Shown here: positions 9,089 through 15,849 of the stretch, in pieces
Numbering within the stretch: position 1 is the first letter of the stretch
Layout of the letters: each line of letters begins with the position of its first letter
Virus record (IMG/VR): IMGVR_UViG_3300031673_000122
Source of the DNA: a virus
DNA length: 44,586 bases
Strand: one strand, 5' to 3'
Translations under genes and position numbers: made by a program
The notes under the pieces: model-generated
Told to the model about the DNA's origin: nothing
Database searches by the model: none
The model's input: the letters and a program-made list of their open reading frames with translations, nothing else

Positions 9089-10762
9089 ATGCCTGAGATA
9101 ACACAATACTATAAACAGCAGAGATTAGCGGCGACAGCGGGCAATGTCCCTCTTAGCGGGCAGGACATTCAACAGATGACGCAGGGTTACCGGGAAGTCG
9201 CTCGGGCCGGCAGGGCACTGACAGAATTTGGAATGAATTGGCTCAAAGTTGACGAAGAGGCGAAATTCCACGACCAGTACAATACCGCCAAGACGGCGGC
9301 ACTTCGAGACTTTCACGAATACAAGCAGAGCCTTCTGACTAACGCCGATACCGAATCGTACGAACCCGGCCTCAAAGCGGTAATAGAAAGAATAAAAGCG
9401 GGCCGGAAATTCACGAATAAGCGGGCCGAGAATAAATTCGGTCTGTGGCTTAACAATGAAATACTTGGCCAGGAAAGTGATGTCCAGGGCCATAAATTCA
9501 GTGTCGATTCCCGGAACTACATTAAGAATTTCAGTTTGAGTTTGAAGACTATAAAAGACATCGGGGCACAGGCTATAGACCCGCAATCGTATGAACGTGC
9601 CAAAATAGAGCTGATGGAACTGTACGGCCTGAGACCGAACGAAAAGACCGGCAAACCCGAACTGATAGAGGGCTGGTCAAACCCAACACTCGATAGCGAT
9701 GAGGTCAGGACAAAAGGTTATCAGTTTGCTCTGGCTGATATGGATGCCGAGCGGCAGGATGTTGCGAATGAGCAGTTTAGTAACAATCTTCTTGATGCAG
9801 TTATTATTAGAGATGCTTCAGGCAATCCGATTGTTGATGAAAAAGGCAGGCCAAGATACGACTGGAACAGGGCGAAAGATTTAGTCAACGACCCTTCGGT
9901 TTTGAAGCAATTCGGAATTAGTCTGAAAGATGCTGATTCGATACTTGAAGATGTAATGAGTCAGGTAAATGTCCAGAAAAAGAGGGACAATGCAGTAACC
10001 GACCAAAAGGTTCGGTCAGGATTTCTCGAAGATGTAGACAGTATAATGACAGGTGCAAAATCAAAAGATGCGGTATTGGCTGACCTTGAGGTAGCAAGGT
10101 TTGGCGATTACAGCGACCCCAATAATCCGATAGAACCCACAATAAGCCAGGATGATTACGAGAAAATTCAAAGTTCCATACATGCCGAATATCAACAGTC
10201 GTATTCAAGTGCCATGTCTCAGGTAGGCCAACATGCAAAAGGCTTACTACTCAATCCTGATTCTTTGGGCTATATCAAAAATGCACCTATTCGCTATAAA
10301 ATAATGGGAGATTTCAATCAGGCATGGCATAAATGGATAGCCGGCAAAGGCGACAAGCTGAAAATATCGGAGATATACCCTGAAGGTATGCGTCTTGCTG
10401 CTCTGCACCAAATATCTGACGAAGAAGCTGAGCGACAAGAAGAAGAAATGAACGAAATGTTAAGGCAGCGAGAAGCAAAAACAAAGATGAAAGAAATTTT
10501 AGGCCGGGAACCCACACCTGTTGATATTAGAAACGCCAAACTTTTGAAAGTGCCTCCGCCAGATTTTAATGCCTCAGTTGAGGATAGAAAAAAACAGTGG
10601 GAAGCCTACAGAGCTGCGGCTGCTGAAATGGAAGAACCAAAAACCAAAAAAGGAAAACGCAAGAAACTTACACCGCAGATAGCAAGGCGTTATTTGGACA
10701 TGACCGGTGATGACCTTGAAGAAGCGAAACGATTAGCTGCCGATGATGGGTATTACGAATGA
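9089..10762 (+). CDS. Internal virion / ejection protein (gp15 slot)
   Basis: 557 aa, highly charged and helical. It lies between the gp14-like and giant gp16-slot genes, and its stop overlaps the next start (ATGA). Confidence 0.45.
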   Translation: MPEITQYYKQQRLAATAGNVPLSGQDIQQMTQGYREVARAGRALTEFGMNWLKVDEEAKFHDQYNTAKTAALRDFHEYKQSLLTNADTESYEPGLKAVIERIKAGRKFTNKRAENKFGLWLNNEILGQESDVQGHKFSVDSRNYIKNFSLSLKTIKDIGAQAIDPQSYERAKIELMELYGLRPNEKTGKPELIEGWSNPTLDSDEVRTKGYQFALADMDAERQDVANEQFSNNLLDAVIIRDASGNPIVDEKGRPRYDWNRAKDLVNDPSVLKQFGISLKDADSILEDVMSQVNVQKKRDNAVTDQKVRSGFLEDVDSIMTGAKSKDAVLADLEVARFGDYSDPNNPIEPTISQDDYEKIQSSIHAEYQQSYSSAMSQVGQHAKGLLLNPDSLGYIKNAPIRYKIMGDFNQAWHKWIAGKGDKLKISEIYPEGMRLAALHQISDEEAERQEEEMNEMLRQREAKTKMKEILGREPTPVDIRNAKLLKVPPPDFNASVEDRKKQWEAYRAAAAEMEEPKTKKGKRKKLTPQIARRYLDMTGDDLEEAKRLAADDGYYE

Positions 10763-13700: not shown

Positions 13701-15849
13701 CACGAAGGAAAAGAAGCTGCCAACTGTTGCAGACGCTAAGGCTTTTGGCCTTGACCTGCGGGACCCGAACCCTGTAAACAACCTGCGAAGCGAATATCTC
13801 GCCATTGCCAGATTAGAGGGGATGATTGACCTGAAAGAATCCCTGATGAAATCCGGCGAAGGTAAATATATCGACAAGACCGAACTTGCCCCTATCGAGT
13901 GGAACAAGGTACAAGACCCCGTATTTGCCGATGTCCGGGTAGCTCCTGAACTTGCCAGGATGATAAATAATCTCATAGCTACTAACAAGATTACAAGACA
14001 GCCTGTATTAAACACCTTCAGGCAGATAAATAATTTCCTGCGAACTGTAAAGTTTATTGGCAGTGCCTTCCATTTGGGCGTTGAAGCCAAACAATCTCTT
14101 GCCGATAGCGGTTATCTCGGGTTCCTGCACAAAAAGACCGCCCTAACAGGACTTACAACCGGATTCAAGAAAAGCGACCCGATATTCAAAACACCGGAGT
14201 ATAAGGATTATATTGCTCACGGCGGAGGCCATCGATACAGCATAGACTCAGAGGCACAAAGGGCATTTTCTCAGTCAATGGAGAAGATGGGCAAAGCAGG
14301 ATTGGTCGCTAAAGGTGTTGCCTTGCCTTTCCAAATACCAGAAAAATTCGTTCGTTGGATGTTTGAAAGTTATATCCCGAAAGTGAAATACGGTAAATAT
14401 CTCGATACCGTCCGCAAGCAGGAAGTGAAACTTGGCCGTTCTTTAACCTCTGCCGAGAAGATAGACATTATCAAAGAACAGCAGAATTTGTATGGAATGA
14501 TGAACGAGAGACTGTTCGGCAGGTCGGGAACGGTAACTACGCTGCTCCGATTCAAATTCATGGCCCCCGGTTTTGCTGAAGGCAACTTCCGTTCTATCTT
14601 GAAAGCTATTTTACAATGGGGCGGCGAGGATGGCTTTAAGGCTCATCGCTCAAGGTCCAATATCATAAATTCGTTTATCATTACTGCGTGTTTGGCAACG
14701 GTAGGAACTATCATCCTGACCGGCAAACCCCCCAAAAAACCAGAAACATTGGCAGATATACGGGACTTGTTCAAGGTAGACACGGGCTCTAAGGATAAAA
14801 ATGACAGGGCAATAATGATAGACCTGCTGACTTACGACAAGGATTATTGGAGCGTCTTTGGTAATCTCGCAACCTTACAACCGGGGAAAGCTGTGGAGGA
14901 AACATTCAAAAGGCTCGGCGGCATGACGGCTACAACATGGGATGTAATTTCCGACCTAAACCAGATGTCGATGGGCAGGGCAATTTACGACTGGAAAGGC
15001 GATAGAGTTGTAGAAGTAACCGACCCCTTTATCGAAAAGATTCTCAAACTCAGTATCCATGAACTCAAAAAAGCCGAACCGATAGCCTCCAATGTTTTCC
15101 AGCAAGCGAGAGACAAAGGCGTAGGAACTGCGTTGGCTGCAACCATGACGTTAGCTGGTGTCAGACTTGCCAAAAGCGAACAGGACAAAAGAGAAATCGA
15201 AATACTCAGCCAGATATGGTCTTTGCGGGACCAGCAGGAAGCCCTCTACTGGTATCTCGGTACAATCAAAAATCCAAGAGACCAGATAAAAAAACACAAT
15301 CAGACCGTAATGCGGATTCTCGATAACCCCATAACTCCGTTAGAAGTCAAAGATGAATATGAACCGAAATTGATAATTGATGTTGATAGGCTAATGGCAA
15401 ATAAGGTGTTCAATTATCTTGGTGACATGGCAAGGTTGGCGGAGTATAGCAATGACCCCAAAAAGTACGAAAAGGAGTTAAAAGAGTTACGCGAAAACGT
15501 GCAGAAATCAGGAAGGTGGCTGAAGAACTTTGAAATAGACGAATCACAGTACAAAAAACATCTTGTCGTCTATGAACTCTATCATCGCAAGATTATTAAG
15601 GAACTTGACCCGGGCAATCCGCTCAGGGATGCGATAGCAAACTTCTACGCAGAAAAAACCATTGTAAGTCGCAAAATGCAATCCGGTGTGGACATTGATA
15701 GAAACCGGCGTTTGCTGAGAAAATACGATGTCATTAGTGGTAATATCTCAGAGATAGCACAGCGAATCTATAAAACAGATGATGAAGAAAAACGAGAGCG
15801 ATACTTTAACAGAATACAGTCAGTGCTTGAGAGGGTGGGGCAGGATTAA
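10759..15849 (+). CDS. Giant (1696 aa) internal virion / ejection protein carrying a ParB/Srx-like nuclease domain
   Basis: Longest ORF in the genome, in the T7 gp16 position. It has the ParB-type motif ILVWQDKAGKYWVVDGHHRVALAKK at nt ~12241-12320, and a hydrophobic helix IITACLATVGTIILTG late in the protein. Confidence 0.7.
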   Translation: MSVWDEAQKLESAEGSVWDAAVALEERPTKVQAPDEAYKQGVEIQDKAVELEMPLTDIQDNWDIINKPETVDPATSGMGTGDGRPYPLAETFFARPYLAAAEALIPGARRGLLSLVDAQLPKPEFTAPGGLADQIERAPWYKKLPEAGGWTAEKAMEFKTLGFLFKAIGLSSLFNTLGSKLASRIAGSQIAKIGGKQALLKYGGWNTFRIKVLSSIAKTAPENMAFIATWRTTEAARRGEPIGPAAVKGALWGLGFSAAVPLVTEAAKVGMNTATFEKAALKLQAKFPKLADYLAGKPEQEFIDATIESLREEATVAGVDVPSEIVFSELHPQAQNIIKGLARQYKSAWIKAAEQDAAAKRYWAVGVEKPKAIEGEIVKPSKPIEAKITPTIKPTEITKVAPAKVSIKPAPPVAEGKVEAPAKQVSEVQEKLPTAEISRKPVTVEGKTYYPVSLPTEKISVDPKKFQFKLGAKLAGGVTEALKDVEKFDPIKGGQILVWQDKAGKYWVVDGHHRVALAKKTGAENLETWVIREADGWTDADARAEGALRNLADGKGTAVDAAKLFRDSDITLEKLRKQGVPTNNAIVKQGMDMKDLSDYVFRLVVDEKLPASYAAPIGRLVKGDAQQKQVADLILEGEIDTVRQAELLAATIDTAPVLTKSEQTLFGVETTEKSLYAERAKILANVEQKLKTNKKVFGVLATQTGIIEAKGNVLAKVENLAAKEQAEEVLFMLEKLANAKGPTAEALNDATKEYAKNPTKDNLSKVTSRLLEQWTEGPARLRIPDSAGVQQLPLERAGQKAVEKPPDLFKPKEGGFVDVTPLAKVHETFMSIIEPSKAVEIAQGKDVYAEVIKAMHKADVAMIEFNENQLEHMDRTLGEWGKALSKYSNKTLELLMLSRGKPESAEAIAIRDDALQQLMKEAPELVGTRKMISRVGNFNYDYLAKVVGDEIGYIEDYFYGIYKDPRRVEKFLNHWKTTKRYTKEKKLPTVADAKAFGLDLRDPNPVNNLRSEYLAIARLEGMIDLKESLMKSGEGKYIDKTELAPIEWNKVQDPVFADVRVAPELARMINNLIATNKITRQPVLNTFRQINNFLRTVKFIGSAFHLGVEAKQSLADSGYLGFLHKKTALTGLTTGFKKSDPIFKTPEYKDYIAHGGGHRYSIDSEAQRAFSQSMEKMGKAGLVAKGVALPFQIPEKFVRWMFESYIPKVKYGKYLDTVRKQEVKLGRSLTSAEKIDIIKEQQNLYGMMNERLFGRSGTVTTLLRFKFMAPGFAEGNFRSILKAILQWGGEDGFKAHRSRSNIINSFIITACLATVGTIILTGKPPKKPETLADIRDLFKVDTGSKDKNDRAIMIDLLTYDKDYWSVFGNLATLQPGKAVEETFKRLGGMTATTWDVISDLNQMSMGRAIYDWKGDRVVEVTDPFIEKILKLSIHELKKAEPIASNVFQQARDKGVGTALAATMTLAGVRLAKSEQDKREIEILSQIWSLRDQQEALYWYLGTIKNPRDQIKKHNQTVMRILDNPITPLEVKDEYEPKLIIDVDRLMANKVFNYLGDMARLAEYSNDPKKYEKELKELRENVQKSGRWLKNFEIDESQYKKHLVVYELYHRKIIKELDPGNPLRDAIANFYAEKTIVSRKMQSGVDIDRNRRLLRKYDVISGNISEIAQRIYKTDDEEKRERYFNRIQSVLERVGQD

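What the first reader, a model, noticed from the sequence alone, without database searches (positions are those of the whole stretch)
10759..15849. 1696-aa virion protein in the gp16 slot carries a ParB/Srx-type domain rather than a recognisable transglycosylase
Seen: the ORF is 5.1 kb, 11 percent of the genome. It follows the gp13/14/15-slot genes. It contains ILVWQDKAGKYWVVDGHHRVALAKKTG at about aa 495-520, which matches the ParB-like nuclease/CTPase core (DGHHR). A hydrophobic helix lies near aa 1290. I saw no SLT-type catalytic motif.

Established knowledge: T7-type gp16 proteins are ejected into the host and form part of the trans-envelope channel. ParB/Srx domains are a recurring module of the injected 'polyvalent proteins' that the Aravind group proposed to counter host defences.

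Inference: this is an ejected multi-domain protein that delivers a ParB-type DNA-binding, nicking or NTPase activity together with the genome. It may act in anti-defence or in protecting or circularising the genome.
Basis: partly seen in the sequence, partly recalled or inferred. Interest (0 to 1): 0.65.

Follow-up and report, generated by a model that had tools for sequence, protein, structure and literature searches.

The report
Giant phage protein with ParB module
A 1696-residue protein at the end of a podovirus's internal-virion-protein operon really does contain a ParB-type nucleotide- and DNA-binding module, inserted as swappable cargo into a conserved helical carrier; this makes it a new variant of the known phage 'polyvalent proteins', and its activity is untested.

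Summary
ORF 10759-15849 (+) encodes 1696 aa. DGHHR lies at aa 510-514. The only strong hydrophobic helix is at aa 1302-1322. No transglycosylase or other muralytic domain was detected.

The ParB call is supported by three independent lines. A profile of the module hits Caulobacter ParB (E 2e-4). An AlphaFold model (pLDDT 77) gives ParB/Noc/Spo0J as its top 22 Foldseek matches, covering both the Srx-like N-domain and the helix-turn-helix DNA-binding domain. Q467, G511, H512, R514, N550 and D560 are invariant or nearly so in 166 diverse relatives.

The module is not the DdrB-like ParB already described in polyvalent proteins, and no Pfam or NCBIfam model reaches its threshold on it. The family has at least 4654 clusters at 50% identity. 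Relatives carry ART-PolyVal, LPD38, Zeta toxin, RelA/SpoT, 2H/Acb1, SLT and MuF domains.

The protein is a mosaic: leader, N-domain, Pro/Lys-rich linker, ParB cargo, and an 885-aa helical C-terminal core. That core structurally matches the C-terminal parts of other phage polyvalent proteins. It shows no detectable homology to T7 gp16, so the 'gp16 slot' is positional only. Packaging, ejection and any nuclease or NTPase activity are inferred, not shown.

The parts
8186..8611 (+). Small internal-virion-protein-like gene (141 aa), first of the operon that ends with the giant gene
   Evidence: phrog_4177 E 4e-11; phrog_308 'internal virion protein' E 3e-4
8608..9087 (+). Internal-virion-protein-like gene (159 aa)
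   Evidence: phrog_418 'internal virion protein' E 1.2e-21
9089..10762 (+). 557-aa gene in the gp15 position. No family match. Its stop codon overlaps the start of the giant gene.
   Evidence: No PHROG, Pfam or NCBIfam hit. No BLASTP similarity to T7 gp15. ATGA overlap. The same gene order (153, 592, 1578 aa) occurs in a relative, L008.
10759..15849 (+). The 1696-aa mosaic protein, last gene of the late structural operon
10759..10983 (+). N-terminal leader, aa 1-75, acidic, with a duplicated SVWD(E/A)A motif. It is kept in relatives whose following domains differ, so it is a candidate packaging or assembly signal (inference).
   Evidence: 36-64% identity over aa 1-75 in P0002-P0010, several of which share nothing else until the ParB module
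10984..11868 (+). N-domain, aa 76-370, Ala/Gly/Leu-rich with a weak hydrophobic segment at aa 245-263. The same domain also occurs joined to unrelated C-terminal parts.
   Evidence: 79-82% identity to P0019-P0022, which lack both the ParB module and the C-core. Present in P0184 and P0210 directly followed by the C-core.
11869..12120 (+). Pro/Lys/Glu/Val-rich linker, aa 371-454 (16% Pro and 15% Lys measured over aa 375-455)
   Evidence: composition
12121..13158 (+). ParB-like cargo module, aa 455-800. It is the most conserved part of the protein among relatives.
   Evidence: 76-88% identity in 17 relatives against 54-77% for the C-core. Profile against 1.84 billion representatives: 4654 clusters at E<=1e-3. 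phrog_21 (positions 1020-1342 of 1362) E 4.6e-36 and phrog_10691.
12097..12423 (+). ParB/Srx-type N-terminal domain, aa 447-555: beta strands, then helix DGHHRVALAKKTG, strand, and helix ARAEGALRNLA
   Evidence: AF2 blocks mostly pLDDT 77-92 here, with a low-confidence loop at aa 470-477. Foldseek hits to ParB, Noc, Spo0J, SbnI, sulfiredoxin and PadC. HMM alignment to Caulobacter ParB 6t1f.
12154..12165 (+). FQFK, aa 466-469, a Box I-like motif. The correspondence to ParB's QPR is inferred.
   Evidence: F 160/166, Q 165/166, K 161/166 plus 4 R
12286..12300 (+). DGHHR, aa 510-514, equivalent to ParB Box II (G-E-R-R)
   Evidence: D/N 165/166; G, H and R 166/166; fourth position H/N/Q. Aligned to GERR.
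12406..12408 (+). Asn550, equivalent to the Asn of ParB Box III (ENxxR)
   Evidence: 166/166; alignments
12424..12723 (+). Helix-turn-helix DNA-binding domain of ParB/Noc type, aa 556-655
   Evidence: Profile match runs to ParB residue 222. Foldseek hits to isolated DNA-binding domains: Noc 6y93 (target-normalised TM 0.64-0.65, rmsd 3.5) and ParB 6s6h.
12784..13098 (+). Four long helices that end the module, aa 676-780. They are preceded by two invariant LFG motifs in low-confidence loops (aa 662-667 and 694-698). Function unknown.
13192..15846 (+). C-terminal core, aa 812-1696: almost all-helical and the constant part of the family
   Evidence: 80 homologues with variable N-terminal parts. 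AF2 pLDDT 81.4, pTM 0.71. BFVD: 32 hits at E<=1e-3, best 5e-12, TM 0.44 over 800-1000 columns, to C-terminal parts of phage polyvalent proteins. No PDB match.
14662..14724 (+). Predicted transmembrane helix, aa 1302-1322, within the C-core
   Evidence: Kyte-Doolittle 2.15. Conserved in the family consensus NIxNSLxLTxxxATVGTLIxTGKxPKKPE.

Best explanation
The gene encodes a mosaic internal-virion ('ejection') protein of a podovirus. It has five parts: a conserved N-terminal leader, an N-domain, a flexible Pro/Lys-rich linker, an inserted cargo module, and an 885-aa helical C-terminal core with one transmembrane helix.

Shown:
- The cargo is a true ParB-type unit: an Srx-like nucleotide-pocket domain plus an HTH DNA-binding domain, followed by a four-helix tail.
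- It belongs to a large family that curated libraries do not model and that differs from the DdrB-like ParB.
- Its pocket residues (Q467, K469, G511, H512, R514, R543, N550, D560) are under strict conservation.
- The module has been shuffled independently of the carrier.
- The carrier fold is shared with other phage polyvalent proteins.

Inferred:
- The protein is packaged with the other internal virion proteins and leaves the capsid ahead of or with the DNA.
- The C-core, with its membrane helix, contributes to the envelope-spanning conduit.
- The ParB module, tethered by the linker, reaches the cytoplasmic side. There it binds DNA through the HTH domain, with binding controlled by a nucleoside triphosphate in the conserved pocket.
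- It most likely acts on the entering phage genome (holding, coating or protecting it) in the first moments of infection, not in partition.

Because Glu is replaced by an invariant His, and the Glu and Arg of Box III are not kept, its chemistry probably differs from ParB's CTP hydrolysis.
For: Fold and pocket:
- Profile against PDB hits Caulobacter ParB, E 2.2e-4 over 142 residues spanning Box II to the HTH domain.
- AF2 model pLDDT 76.9, pTM 0.67.
- The top 22 Foldseek hits are all ParB/Noc/Spo0J, probability 1.0, 190-226 aligned columns. Below them come pNOB8 ParB-N, PadC, SbnI and sulfiredoxin.
- Pocket residues are invariant in 166 representatives.

Cargo and carrier architecture:
- Census with three HMMs; P0184 has the N-domain joined directly to the C-core, and P0018 has a different insert.
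- Regional identities are discordant.

Polyvalent context.

Virion context:
- Genes similar to internal-virion-protein families lie directly upstream, and the start overlaps the upstream stop codon.
- The same module sits in the giant proteins after the tail-tube genes of Prochlorococcus phage P-SCSP1. It also occurs in large proteins of Ruegeria phage 45A6 and DVV SI2.

Not an artefact: 6 contigs, including ENA and JGI assemblies.
Against: - There are no proteomic or functional data for this protein or any close relative. The authors of P-SCSP1 could only guess that its giant genes encode internal virion proteins (PMC9860041).
- The C-core shows no similarity to T7 gp16, whether by hhalign or by Foldseek against the PDB. 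A role in the channel rests on position and one predicted membrane helix.
- Canonical CTPase residues are incomplete.
- No repeated parS-like palindrome was found in the genome.
- Curated ParB models do not reach significance: Pfam nothing or ParBc_2 at E 0.17, TIGR00180 at E 0.068.
- The AF2 model rests on only 10 sequences.
Confidence: 0.6

Rival explanations
1. The module is an injected enzyme directed at DNA or nucleotides that are not the phage's own. It would be an NTP-regulated nicking or degrading nuclease, or an NTP pyrophosphatase. It would attack host or competitor DNA, or deplete a nucleotide signal. Iyer et al. proposed this for ParB domains of polyvalent proteins.
For: - The [DN]-G-H-x-R signature with an invariant His resembles the non-partition branches of the ParB/Srx superfamily. 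SbnI and sulfiredoxin appear among the structural hits.
- Relatives combine the module with clear effector enzymes: ART, Zeta toxin, RelA/SpoT, 2H/Acb1, GGDEF.
- The proposal is set out in PMC5512222.
Against: - The best matches by both sequence and structure are DNA-clamping ParB/Noc proteins with their HTH domain, not nucleases.
- No metal-binding acidic cluster typical of a nuclease was identified.
- Nuclease activity of ParB-like domains is weak and non-specific in the published cases, as summarised.
Confidence: 0.2
2. The module works inside the capsid rather than in the cell. It would grip a segment or the end of the packaged genome and fix it to the internal core, so that the correct end is presented to the portal at ejection.
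For: - The HTH DNA-binding domain is covalently tied to a presumed core protein.
- It is the most conserved part of the protein, as expected for a part that contacts the phage's own DNA or core.
Against: - About 70 relatives with the same C-core lack the module altogether, or carry a DnaJ or methylase domain instead. It cannot therefore be essential for virion architecture.
- No repeated binding-site-like palindrome was found.
- The same module occurs in proteins of very different architecture.
Confidence: 0.1
3. The protein is a late non-structural protein. In that case the ParB module would serve replication, partition or transcriptional silencing from within the infected cell, as KorB and Noc do.
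For: The domain organisation (NTD plus HTH) is that of cellular and plasmid ParB/KorB/Noc proteins. No direct evidence of packaging exists.
Against: - The gene is the last of the tail and internal-virion-protein operon and overlaps the preceding gene.
- No ParA-like gene was seen among the ORFs scanned.
- The module is embedded in 386-4467-aa proteins alongside hallmark polyvalent domains.
- tblastn found no plasmid homologues.
Confidence: 0.05

Closest known systems
[quoted passage not shown]
   Same: - A giant multi-domain protein encoded among late or virion genes.
- Domain shuffling between relatives.
- A ParB/Srx-superfamily domain as one module.
- Relatives carry ART-PolyVal, LPD38, LPD3, MuF, Zeta toxin, RelA/SpoT and 2H domains.
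- The C-core fold is shared with proteins annotated as containing a 'large polyvalent protein associated domain'.
   Different: - The ParB module is a different family. P1 DdrB scores 2e-39 on PF18763, yet hhalign against this module gives 0.16% probability. PF18763 does not hit this protein or 25 diverse relatives.
- This module carries a ParB-type HTH DNA-binding domain and a four-helix tail.
- No peptidase domain for self-processing was found in this protein.
Chromosomal and plasmid ParB/Spo0J/Noc/KorB CTP-dependent DNA clamps (for example PDB 6t1f, 7bm8, 7nfu, 7bnr, 6sdk, 1vz0)
   Same: - Two-domain organisation: Srx-like NTD followed by an HTH DNA-binding domain.
- Box II Gly and last Arg, the Box III Asn, and a Box I-like Gln plus a basic residue are invariant.
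   Different: - The Glu of GERR is an invariant His and the first Arg is variable.
- The Glu and Arg of ENxxR are not kept.
- No ParA partner and no parS-like repeats were found.
- The C-terminal dimerisation domain is replaced by a four-helix tail.
- The unit is embedded in a 1696-aa virion-operon protein.
- Sequence identity in the structural alignments is only 15-21%.
T7 gp16 (internal virion protein D) and the T7 ejectosome
   Same: - Last large gene after small genes similar to internal-virion-protein families and a gp15-sized gene.
- The minimal form of the family (P0184, 1255 aa) is close in size to gp16 (1318 aa).
- Largely helical, with a hydrophobic helix.
- The variable enzymatic part lies N-terminal to a constant part, as the SLT domain does in gp16.
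   Different: - No homology was detectable: hhalign probability 0.09%; no PHROG for gp16; the best Foldseek PDB match has E 0.07 and is unrelated.
- No SLT domain.
Non-partition ParB/Srx members with a D/N-G-x-H/Q-R type motif (SbnI, sulfiredoxin, pNOB8 ParB-N, PadC)
   Same: They match the N-domain structurally over 86-150 columns. SbnI also appears in the profile search, aligned as VIDGVHR against VVDGHHR.
   Different: Matches are weaker (E 0.03-0.15) than to ParB/Noc. These proteins lack the ParB-type HTH arrangement seen here.

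Membership tests
ParB/Srx superfamily | Srx-like alpha/beta N-domain fold | tested here: met
   AF2 model pLDDT 76.9. Foldseek hits to ParB, Noc, Spo0J, SbnI, sulfiredoxin and PadC with probability 0.93-1.0.
ParB/Srx superfamily | Conserved Gly and Arg in the strand-helix junction (GxxR, Box II) | tested here: met
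   G511 and R514 are 166/166. They align to GERR of Caulobacter ParB and Spo0J.
ParB/Srx superfamily | Significant match to a curated family model (Pfam PF02195 or PF08857, TIGR00180) | tested here: not met
   Pfam gives no hit on the whole protein at E<=1. The module alone hits ParBc_2 at E 0.17. TIGR00180 scores E 0.068, 12.9 bits against a cut-off of 58. phrog_1033 'ParB-like' reaches only E 0.001.
ParB/Noc/KorB CTP-dependent clamps | HTH DNA-binding domain directly after the N-domain | tested here: met
   The profile alignment reaches ParB residue 222. Foldseek aligns 190-226 columns to NTD+DBD constructs and also matches isolated DBDs 6y93 and 6s6h.
ParB/Noc/KorB CTP-dependent clamps | Complete triphosphate-binding and catalytic set: Box I Q..R, Box II G-E-R-R, Box III E-N-x-x-R | tested here: not met
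   Kept: Q467, K469 (correspondence to Box I inferred), G511, R514, N550. Changed: Glu to invariant His512; first Arg to H/N/Q; Box III Glu and Arg variable.
ParB/Noc/KorB CTP-dependent clamps | Cognate palindromic loading site (parS, NBS or OB) in the replicon | tested here: inconclusive
   A scan for palindromes with 7-10-nt half-sites found only scattered single sites and no repeated family. A single site or a non-palindromic site would be missed.
ParB/Noc/KorB CTP-dependent clamps | CTP binding, hydrolysis and N-domain self-dimerisation | not testable with these tools
   Needs biochemistry.
DdrB-like ParB (Pfam PF18763) | Match to the PF18763 model or to P1 DdrB | tested here: not met
   P1 DdrB hits PF18763 at 2e-39. 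This protein and 25 relatives do not hit it. hhalign of the module profile against DdrB gives probability 0.16%.
Phage polyvalent proteins | Large protein that combines several unrelated modules, with rapid shuffling between relatives | tested here: met
   Five segments have discordant histories. Relatives insert ART-PolyVal, DnaJ or other segments at the same junctions.
Phage polyvalent proteins | Network link to hallmark domains (ART-PolyVal, LPDs, MuF, MPTase and others) | tested here: met
   In 25 spread relatives of the module: LPD38 in 6, ART-PolyVal in 2, and LPD3, MuF, Zeta toxin, RelA/SpoT, 2H/Acb1, SLT, GGDEF and GNAT. This protein itself carries none of them.
Phage polyvalent proteins | Packaged in the virion and delivered to the host | not testable with these tools
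   Only gene position supports it. No isolate with proteomic data was found among relatives.
T7 gp16 / internal virion protein D | Gene position after the tail-tube and small internal-virion-protein genes | tested here: met
T7 gp16 / internal virion protein D | Sequence or structural homology to gp16 | tested here: not met
   hhalign probability 0.09%. No gp16 PHROG. Foldseek and HMM searches of the PDB found no gp16. Hardies et al. needed customised HMMs to find very distant IVP-D homologues (PMC4819975), so deep homology is not excluded.
T7 gp16 / internal virion protein D | N-terminal lytic transglycosylase domain | tested here: not met
   No SLT or other muralytic family at E<=1.

The most novel reading that the evidence does not exclude
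The module defines a large, undescribed branch of ParB-like nucleotide switches that phage virions deliver. Tethered to the ejection conduit, it would close around the entering end of the phage genome in response to an NTP met in the cytoplasm. It would then escort or shield the DNA, for example from RecBCD or restriction enzymes, or pull it in. That would be a ParB-type clamp used for genome entry rather than segregation.
Probability: 0.15. Interest if true: 0.8.

Novelty: new variant of a known kind. Interest (0 to 1): 0.5.

Why it matters
Polyvalent proteins are thought to be the first phage products to act in an infected cell, yet almost none has been tested.

This work defines a discrete module of about 340 residues, with exact boundaries, an invariant residue set (Q467, K469, G511, H512, R514, R543, N550, D560) and a confident model. 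The module is very widespread (at least 4654 clusters at 50% identity), and neither Pfam nor NCBIfam names it.

It shows that a complete ParB-type unit, nucleotide pocket plus HTH domain, has been recruited as cargo of podovirus internal proteins. This differs from the DdrB-type domain known so far.

It also separates cargo from carrier. The family's constant C-terminal core, with no solved relative, is a candidate for the part that builds the conduit in podoviruses lacking a recognisable gp16.

The same module occurs in the cultured Prochlorococcus phage P-SCSP1, which gives an experimental route.

Tried and rejected
- Megablast of the gene against 50,697 phage records: no match. tblastn found only the ParB module, in 21 records.
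- phmmer of the whole protein against the PDB: nothing.
- A second word-indexed homology search with the module alone returned only 2 proteins. The exhaustive profile search was needed.
- Homology of the C-core to T7 gp16 and of the upstream ORF to T7 gp15: rejected. C-core against the PDB by Foldseek and by profile: nothing.
- Identity with the DdrB-like ParB of phage P1: rejected.
- Search for parS-like repeated palindromes: none. The long-range inverted repeats look like chance.
- Module in plasmids by tblastn: none.
- C-core HMM on the giant proteins of P-SCSP1, Ruegeria 45A6 and DVV SI2: no hit, only the ParB module.
- Assembly artefact or gene fusion: rejected because the identical protein is on 6 contigs, including ENA and JGI assemblies, and 7 proteins show the same three-part order.
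- Base composition gives no sign of a recent foreign insertion: GC is 0.49 in the module against 0.45-0.46 in the flanks.
- I could not inspect model coordinates, so the clustering of the invariant residues in one pocket is inferred from the alignment to ParB, not measured.

Full report
**1. The observation**

The window carries an uninterrupted ORF at 10759-15849 on the + strand (ATG start, 1696 aa). Its ATG overlaps the stop codon of the preceding 557-aa ORF (ATGA). The only strong hydrophobic helix is at aa 1302-1322, a little downstream of the 'about 1290' given, and a weak one lies at aa 245-263. Pfam at E<=1 finds no SLT, lysozyme or peptidase domain.

Window bases 1-127 repeat exactly at 44460-44586. 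The window is therefore a closed genome of 44,459 bp.

The gene order is: small and large terminase, portal, protease/scaffold, major capsid, tail tube A, fibres, two small proteins matching 'internal virion protein' PHROGs (8186-8611, 8608-9087), a 557-aa ORF, then the giant ORF. The positional description 'gp16 slot' is therefore correct. No RNA or DNA polymerase was detected, so only the structural module is T7-like.

The exact 1696-aa protein is encoded on six contigs of 44-45 kb, and the two shown come from ENA and JGI assemblies. This rules out a one-off mis-assembly that fused separate genes.

**2. Is the ParB/Srx call right?**

Curated libraries do not see the domain.
- Pfam gives nothing on the whole protein, and only ParBc_2 at E 0.17 on the module alone.
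- NCBIfam TIGR00180 gives E 0.068.
- PHROGs gives a weak hit to ParB-like phrog_1033 (E 0.001). It gives strong hits to two unannotated parts of large profiles: phrog_21 positions 1020-1342, E 4.6e-36, and phrog_10691.

I aligned aa 436-800 with nine homologous segments at 27-85% identity (A1). Three independent tests then agree.
- A profile of A1 searched against all PDB sequences finds Caulobacter ParB (6t1f/7bm8) at E 2.2e-4. The 142 aligned residues run from Box II through the HTH domain. SbnI follows below significance.
- hhalign of A1 against B. subtilis Spo0J gives E 2.6e-4 over 126 columns with the same register.
- An AlphaFold model built on A1 (pLDDT 76.9, pTM 0.67) gives ParB, Noc or Spo0J as every one of its top 22 Foldseek PDB hits (E 5e-6 to 4e-3, probability 1.0, 190-226 aligned columns). 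pNOB8 ParB-N, PadC, SbnI and sulfiredoxin follow, as do the isolated DNA-binding domains of Noc and ParB.

So the fold is a ParB-type Srx-like N-domain (aa 447-555) followed by a ParB-type HTH DNA-binding domain (aa 556-655). The module ends in four long helices (aa 676-780).

**3. The pocket residues**

In the alignments, V-V-D-G-H-H-R corresponds to I-V-A-G-E-R-R of ParB, and A-L-R-N-L-A-D corresponds to I-I-E-N-V-Q-R.

I aligned 166 module sequences, mostly taken from representatives of 50%-identity clusters. The counts are as follows (numbering checked).

| Residue | Conservation |
|---|---|
| F466 | 160/166 |
| Q467 | 165/166 |
| K469 | 161, plus 4 Arg |
| D510 | Asn 106, Asp 59 |
| G511 | 166/166 |
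| H512 | 166/166 |
| H513 | His 93, Asn 40, Gln 32 |
| R514 | 166/166 |
| R543 | 162/166 |
| N550 | 166/166 |
| D560 | 166/166 |
| R566 | 160/166 |

The pocket is thus under strict selection, but it is not the ParB CTPase set. The Glu of GERR is always His, the first Arg is variable, and of ENxxR only the Asn is kept. The motif F-Q-[FY]-K after the first strand looks like Box I (QPR). No program aligned it, so that equivalence is an inference. A nucleotide-binding pocket is likely. ParB-like CTP hydrolysis cannot be assumed.

**4. How large and how known is the family?**

A profile search of 1.84 billion cluster representatives finds 4654 proteins at E<=1e-3 and 2624 at E<=1e-30. The best 150 contain the whole module of about 340 aa inside proteins of 386-4467 aa.

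In 25 members spread through that list, Pfam finds LPD38 (6 members), ART-PolyVal (2), and single cases of SLT, LPD3, Zeta toxin, GGDEF, 2H/LigT/Acb1, MuF, FtsK-gamma, PARP, RelA/SpoT and GNAT. This is the domain vocabulary of the polyvalent proteins of Iyer et al. 2017 (PMC5512222).

That paper describes a 'DdrB-like ParB' domain, prototype phage P1 DdrB. I fetched DdrB. It scores 2e-39 on Pfam PF18763, yet hhalign against the present module gives 0.16% probability. PF18763 hits neither this protein nor the 25 relatives. The module is therefore a different ParB/Srx family, closer to chromosomal ParB/Noc and with its own HTH domain.

Among isolates, the module occurs in the 2563-aa protein that follows the gp11/gp12 tail-tube genes and three unannotated ORFs in Prochlorococcus phage P-SCSP1. 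It also occurs in a 3912-aa protein of Ruegeria phage 45A6 and in a 792-aa protein of 'Dunaliella viridis virus SI2'. The P-SCSP1 authors could not annotate their giant genes and only guessed that they encode internal virion proteins (PMC9860041). The cryo-EM paper does not resolve them (PMC10575957). tblastn found no plasmid copy.

**5. Anatomy of the whole protein**

BLAST and three home-made HMMs divide the protein into five segments.
- A leader, aa 1-75. It is 36-64% identical in relatives that then diverge completely.
- An N-domain, aa 76-370. It is 79-82% identical to proteins P0019-P0022, which have unrelated C-terminal parts, but only 33-35% identical in some relatives that share everything else.
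- A Pro/Lys/Glu/Val-rich linker, aa 371-454.
- The ParB module, aa 455-800.
- A C-terminal core, aa 812-1696.

Among 17 relatives the ParB module is 76-88% identical while the C-core is 54-77% identical. The segments therefore have separate histories.

Of about 106 proteins with the C-core, 27 carry the ParB module. The others carry DnaJ, methylase or unknown segments. P0184 (1255 aa) is the N-domain joined directly to the C-core. P0018 has a different 370-aa insert in place of the ParB module, in a phage with the same gene order. The ParB module is thus cargo inserted between constant parts.

**6. The C-core**

An AlphaFold model built on 26 sequences is confident (pLDDT 81.4, pTM 0.71) and almost entirely helical. 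It has no significant match in the PDB by structure (best E 0.07, probability 0.12) or by profile. hhalign against T7 gp16 gives 0.09% probability, and the upstream ORF does not resemble T7 gp15.

Against predicted viral structures it has 32 matches at E<=1e-3. The best is 5e-12 with TM about 0.44 over 800-1000 columns. All are C-terminal pieces of long phage proteins. Many are annotated as containing large-polyvalent-protein-associated, Zeta toxin, RelA/SpoT, ART-PolyVal, helicase or methylase domains. The hits include proteins of Cellulophaga phage phi19:3, Celeribacter phage P12053L, Arthronema virus TR020 and Microbacterium phage Shocker.

The core is therefore a widespread 'carrier' of polyvalent proteins. 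It contains the conserved transmembrane-like helix (aa 1302-1322) and many invariant polar residues of unknown role. Hardies et al. needed customised HMMs to find very distant IVP-D homologues (PMC4819975). Deep homology to gp16 is therefore not excluded, only not detected.

**7. Most likely mechanism**

Shown:
- a real ParB-type NTD plus HTH unit with a strictly conserved pocket;
- cargo-in-carrier architecture;
- kinship with polyvalent proteins;
- position as the last gene, overlapping the preceding one, of the internal-virion-protein operon.

Inferred:
- The protein is packaged and expelled with the other internal proteins.
- The helical core with its membrane helix takes part in the envelope conduit.
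- The linker lets the ParB unit reach the cytoplasmic side.
- There the module binds DNA under control of a bound NTP and acts on the entering genome.

I put about 0.85 on 'ParB-fold cargo in a polyvalent internal-virion-type protein' and about 0.35 on the specific DNA-handling role. The combined figure is 0.6.

Rivals:
- an injected nuclease or NTPase aimed at host or competitor DNA or at nucleotides (0.2);
- a DNA anchor that works inside the capsid (0.1), weakened because most relatives with the same core lack the module;
- a non-structural late ParB/KorB-like regulator (0.05).

I found no parS-like repeated palindrome and no ParA among the ORFs I scanned.

**8. Novelty and score**

ParB-superfamily domains in phage polyvalent proteins were predicted in 2017, so the kind is known. 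New here:
- the module is a distinct family with a complete ParB-like two-domain organisation, very large, and not named by Pfam or NCBIfam;
- its boundaries and invariant residues are defined;
- it is shown to be exchangeable cargo in the gp16-position protein of a clade of environmental podoviruses;
- the carrier part is recognised as a fold shared among polyvalent proteins.

A specialist would find this useful but not astonishing, and there are no functional data. I rate it a new variant of a known kind, interest 0.5.

Noticed in passing
window 1-127 and 44460-44586: The two ends of the window are 100% identical over 127 nt. This is either a circular-assembly overlap or a short terminal repeat. 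The unique genome length is 44,459 bp.
   Followed up: partly
window 43607-44586, continuing at 128-797: The ORF listed as 39..797 is the 3' part of a 549-aa ORF that starts at ATG 43607 and crosses the window junction. It has a signal-peptide-like N-terminus (MKKLIFLLIMLIMATSAFG) and a sequence reminiscent of beta-helix tailspikes or depolymerases. It has no PHROG or Pfam hit.
   Followed up: partly
window 1709, 2306 and 43607 (repeat families D4/D5): Three ORFs around the tail genes begin with closely similar hydrophobic signal-peptide or lipoprotein-like N-termini. These are also conserved at the DNA level. That is unusual for virion-module genes.
   Followed up: no
window 24287-25587 (five copies) and 42235: A 22-nt element, AAAGGCAGGTGAAT(T/G)ATG, is repeated immediately before successive small genes. 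It is a shared ribosome-binding and start context, or a regulatory site.
   Followed up: no
window 16452-18450: About 2 kb directly downstream of the giant gene has no ORF of 80 aa or more. Sigma-70-like promoter matches in the scanned region 15600-18600 are enriched (15 found, 6.3 expected). A 27-nt repeat containing TTGACA occurs at 17629 and 18294. This is probably the early or regulatory region with very small genes. No tRNA genes are present in the window.
   Followed up: partly
window 28706-30847: A 713-aa ORF lies in a stretch of negative AT skew. It has no PHROG hit and only a weak match to the C-terminus of the membrane protein YfhO. It is the second largest unexplained gene in the genome.
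   Followed up: no
whole window: No RNA polymerase or DNA polymerase was detected. The replication module has a replication-initiator-like protein (27422-28144), a Cas4-type exonuclease (20938-21972) and two SAM methyltransferases (31476-32144, 34055-34732). The phage is T7-like only in its structural genes.
   Followed up: partly
window 12742-12759 and 12838-12852 (aa 662-667 EQTLFG, aa 694-698 KKVFG): Two 'LFG' motifs, invariant or nearly so, sit in the loop region between the HTH domain and the helical tail of the ParB module; the first lies in a low-confidence stretch of the model. In distant relatives the first reads Q-x-[S/D/G]-L-F, which resembles a sliding-clamp-binding motif. They could equally be docking or cleavage sites.
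   Followed up: no
window 13192-15846 (C-core): The helical core has many invariant polar residues, for example in GGGHRYS, NERLFGRSGTVT and FAEGNFR. No solved structural relative exists. An enzymatic or ion-conducting site cannot be excluded.
   Followed up: partly
L003 (Prochlorococcus phage P-SCSP1g) 7636-15327; L002 (Ruegeria phage 45A6) 6829-18567; L001 (DVV SI2) 7996-10374: Unannotated large proteins of three deposited phages contain the same ParB-like module (E 3e-76 to 5e-86 against my HMM). The record named 'Dunaliella viridis virus SI2' is classified in Caudoviricetes, so it looks like a tailed bacteriophage rather than an algal virus.
   Followed up: partly
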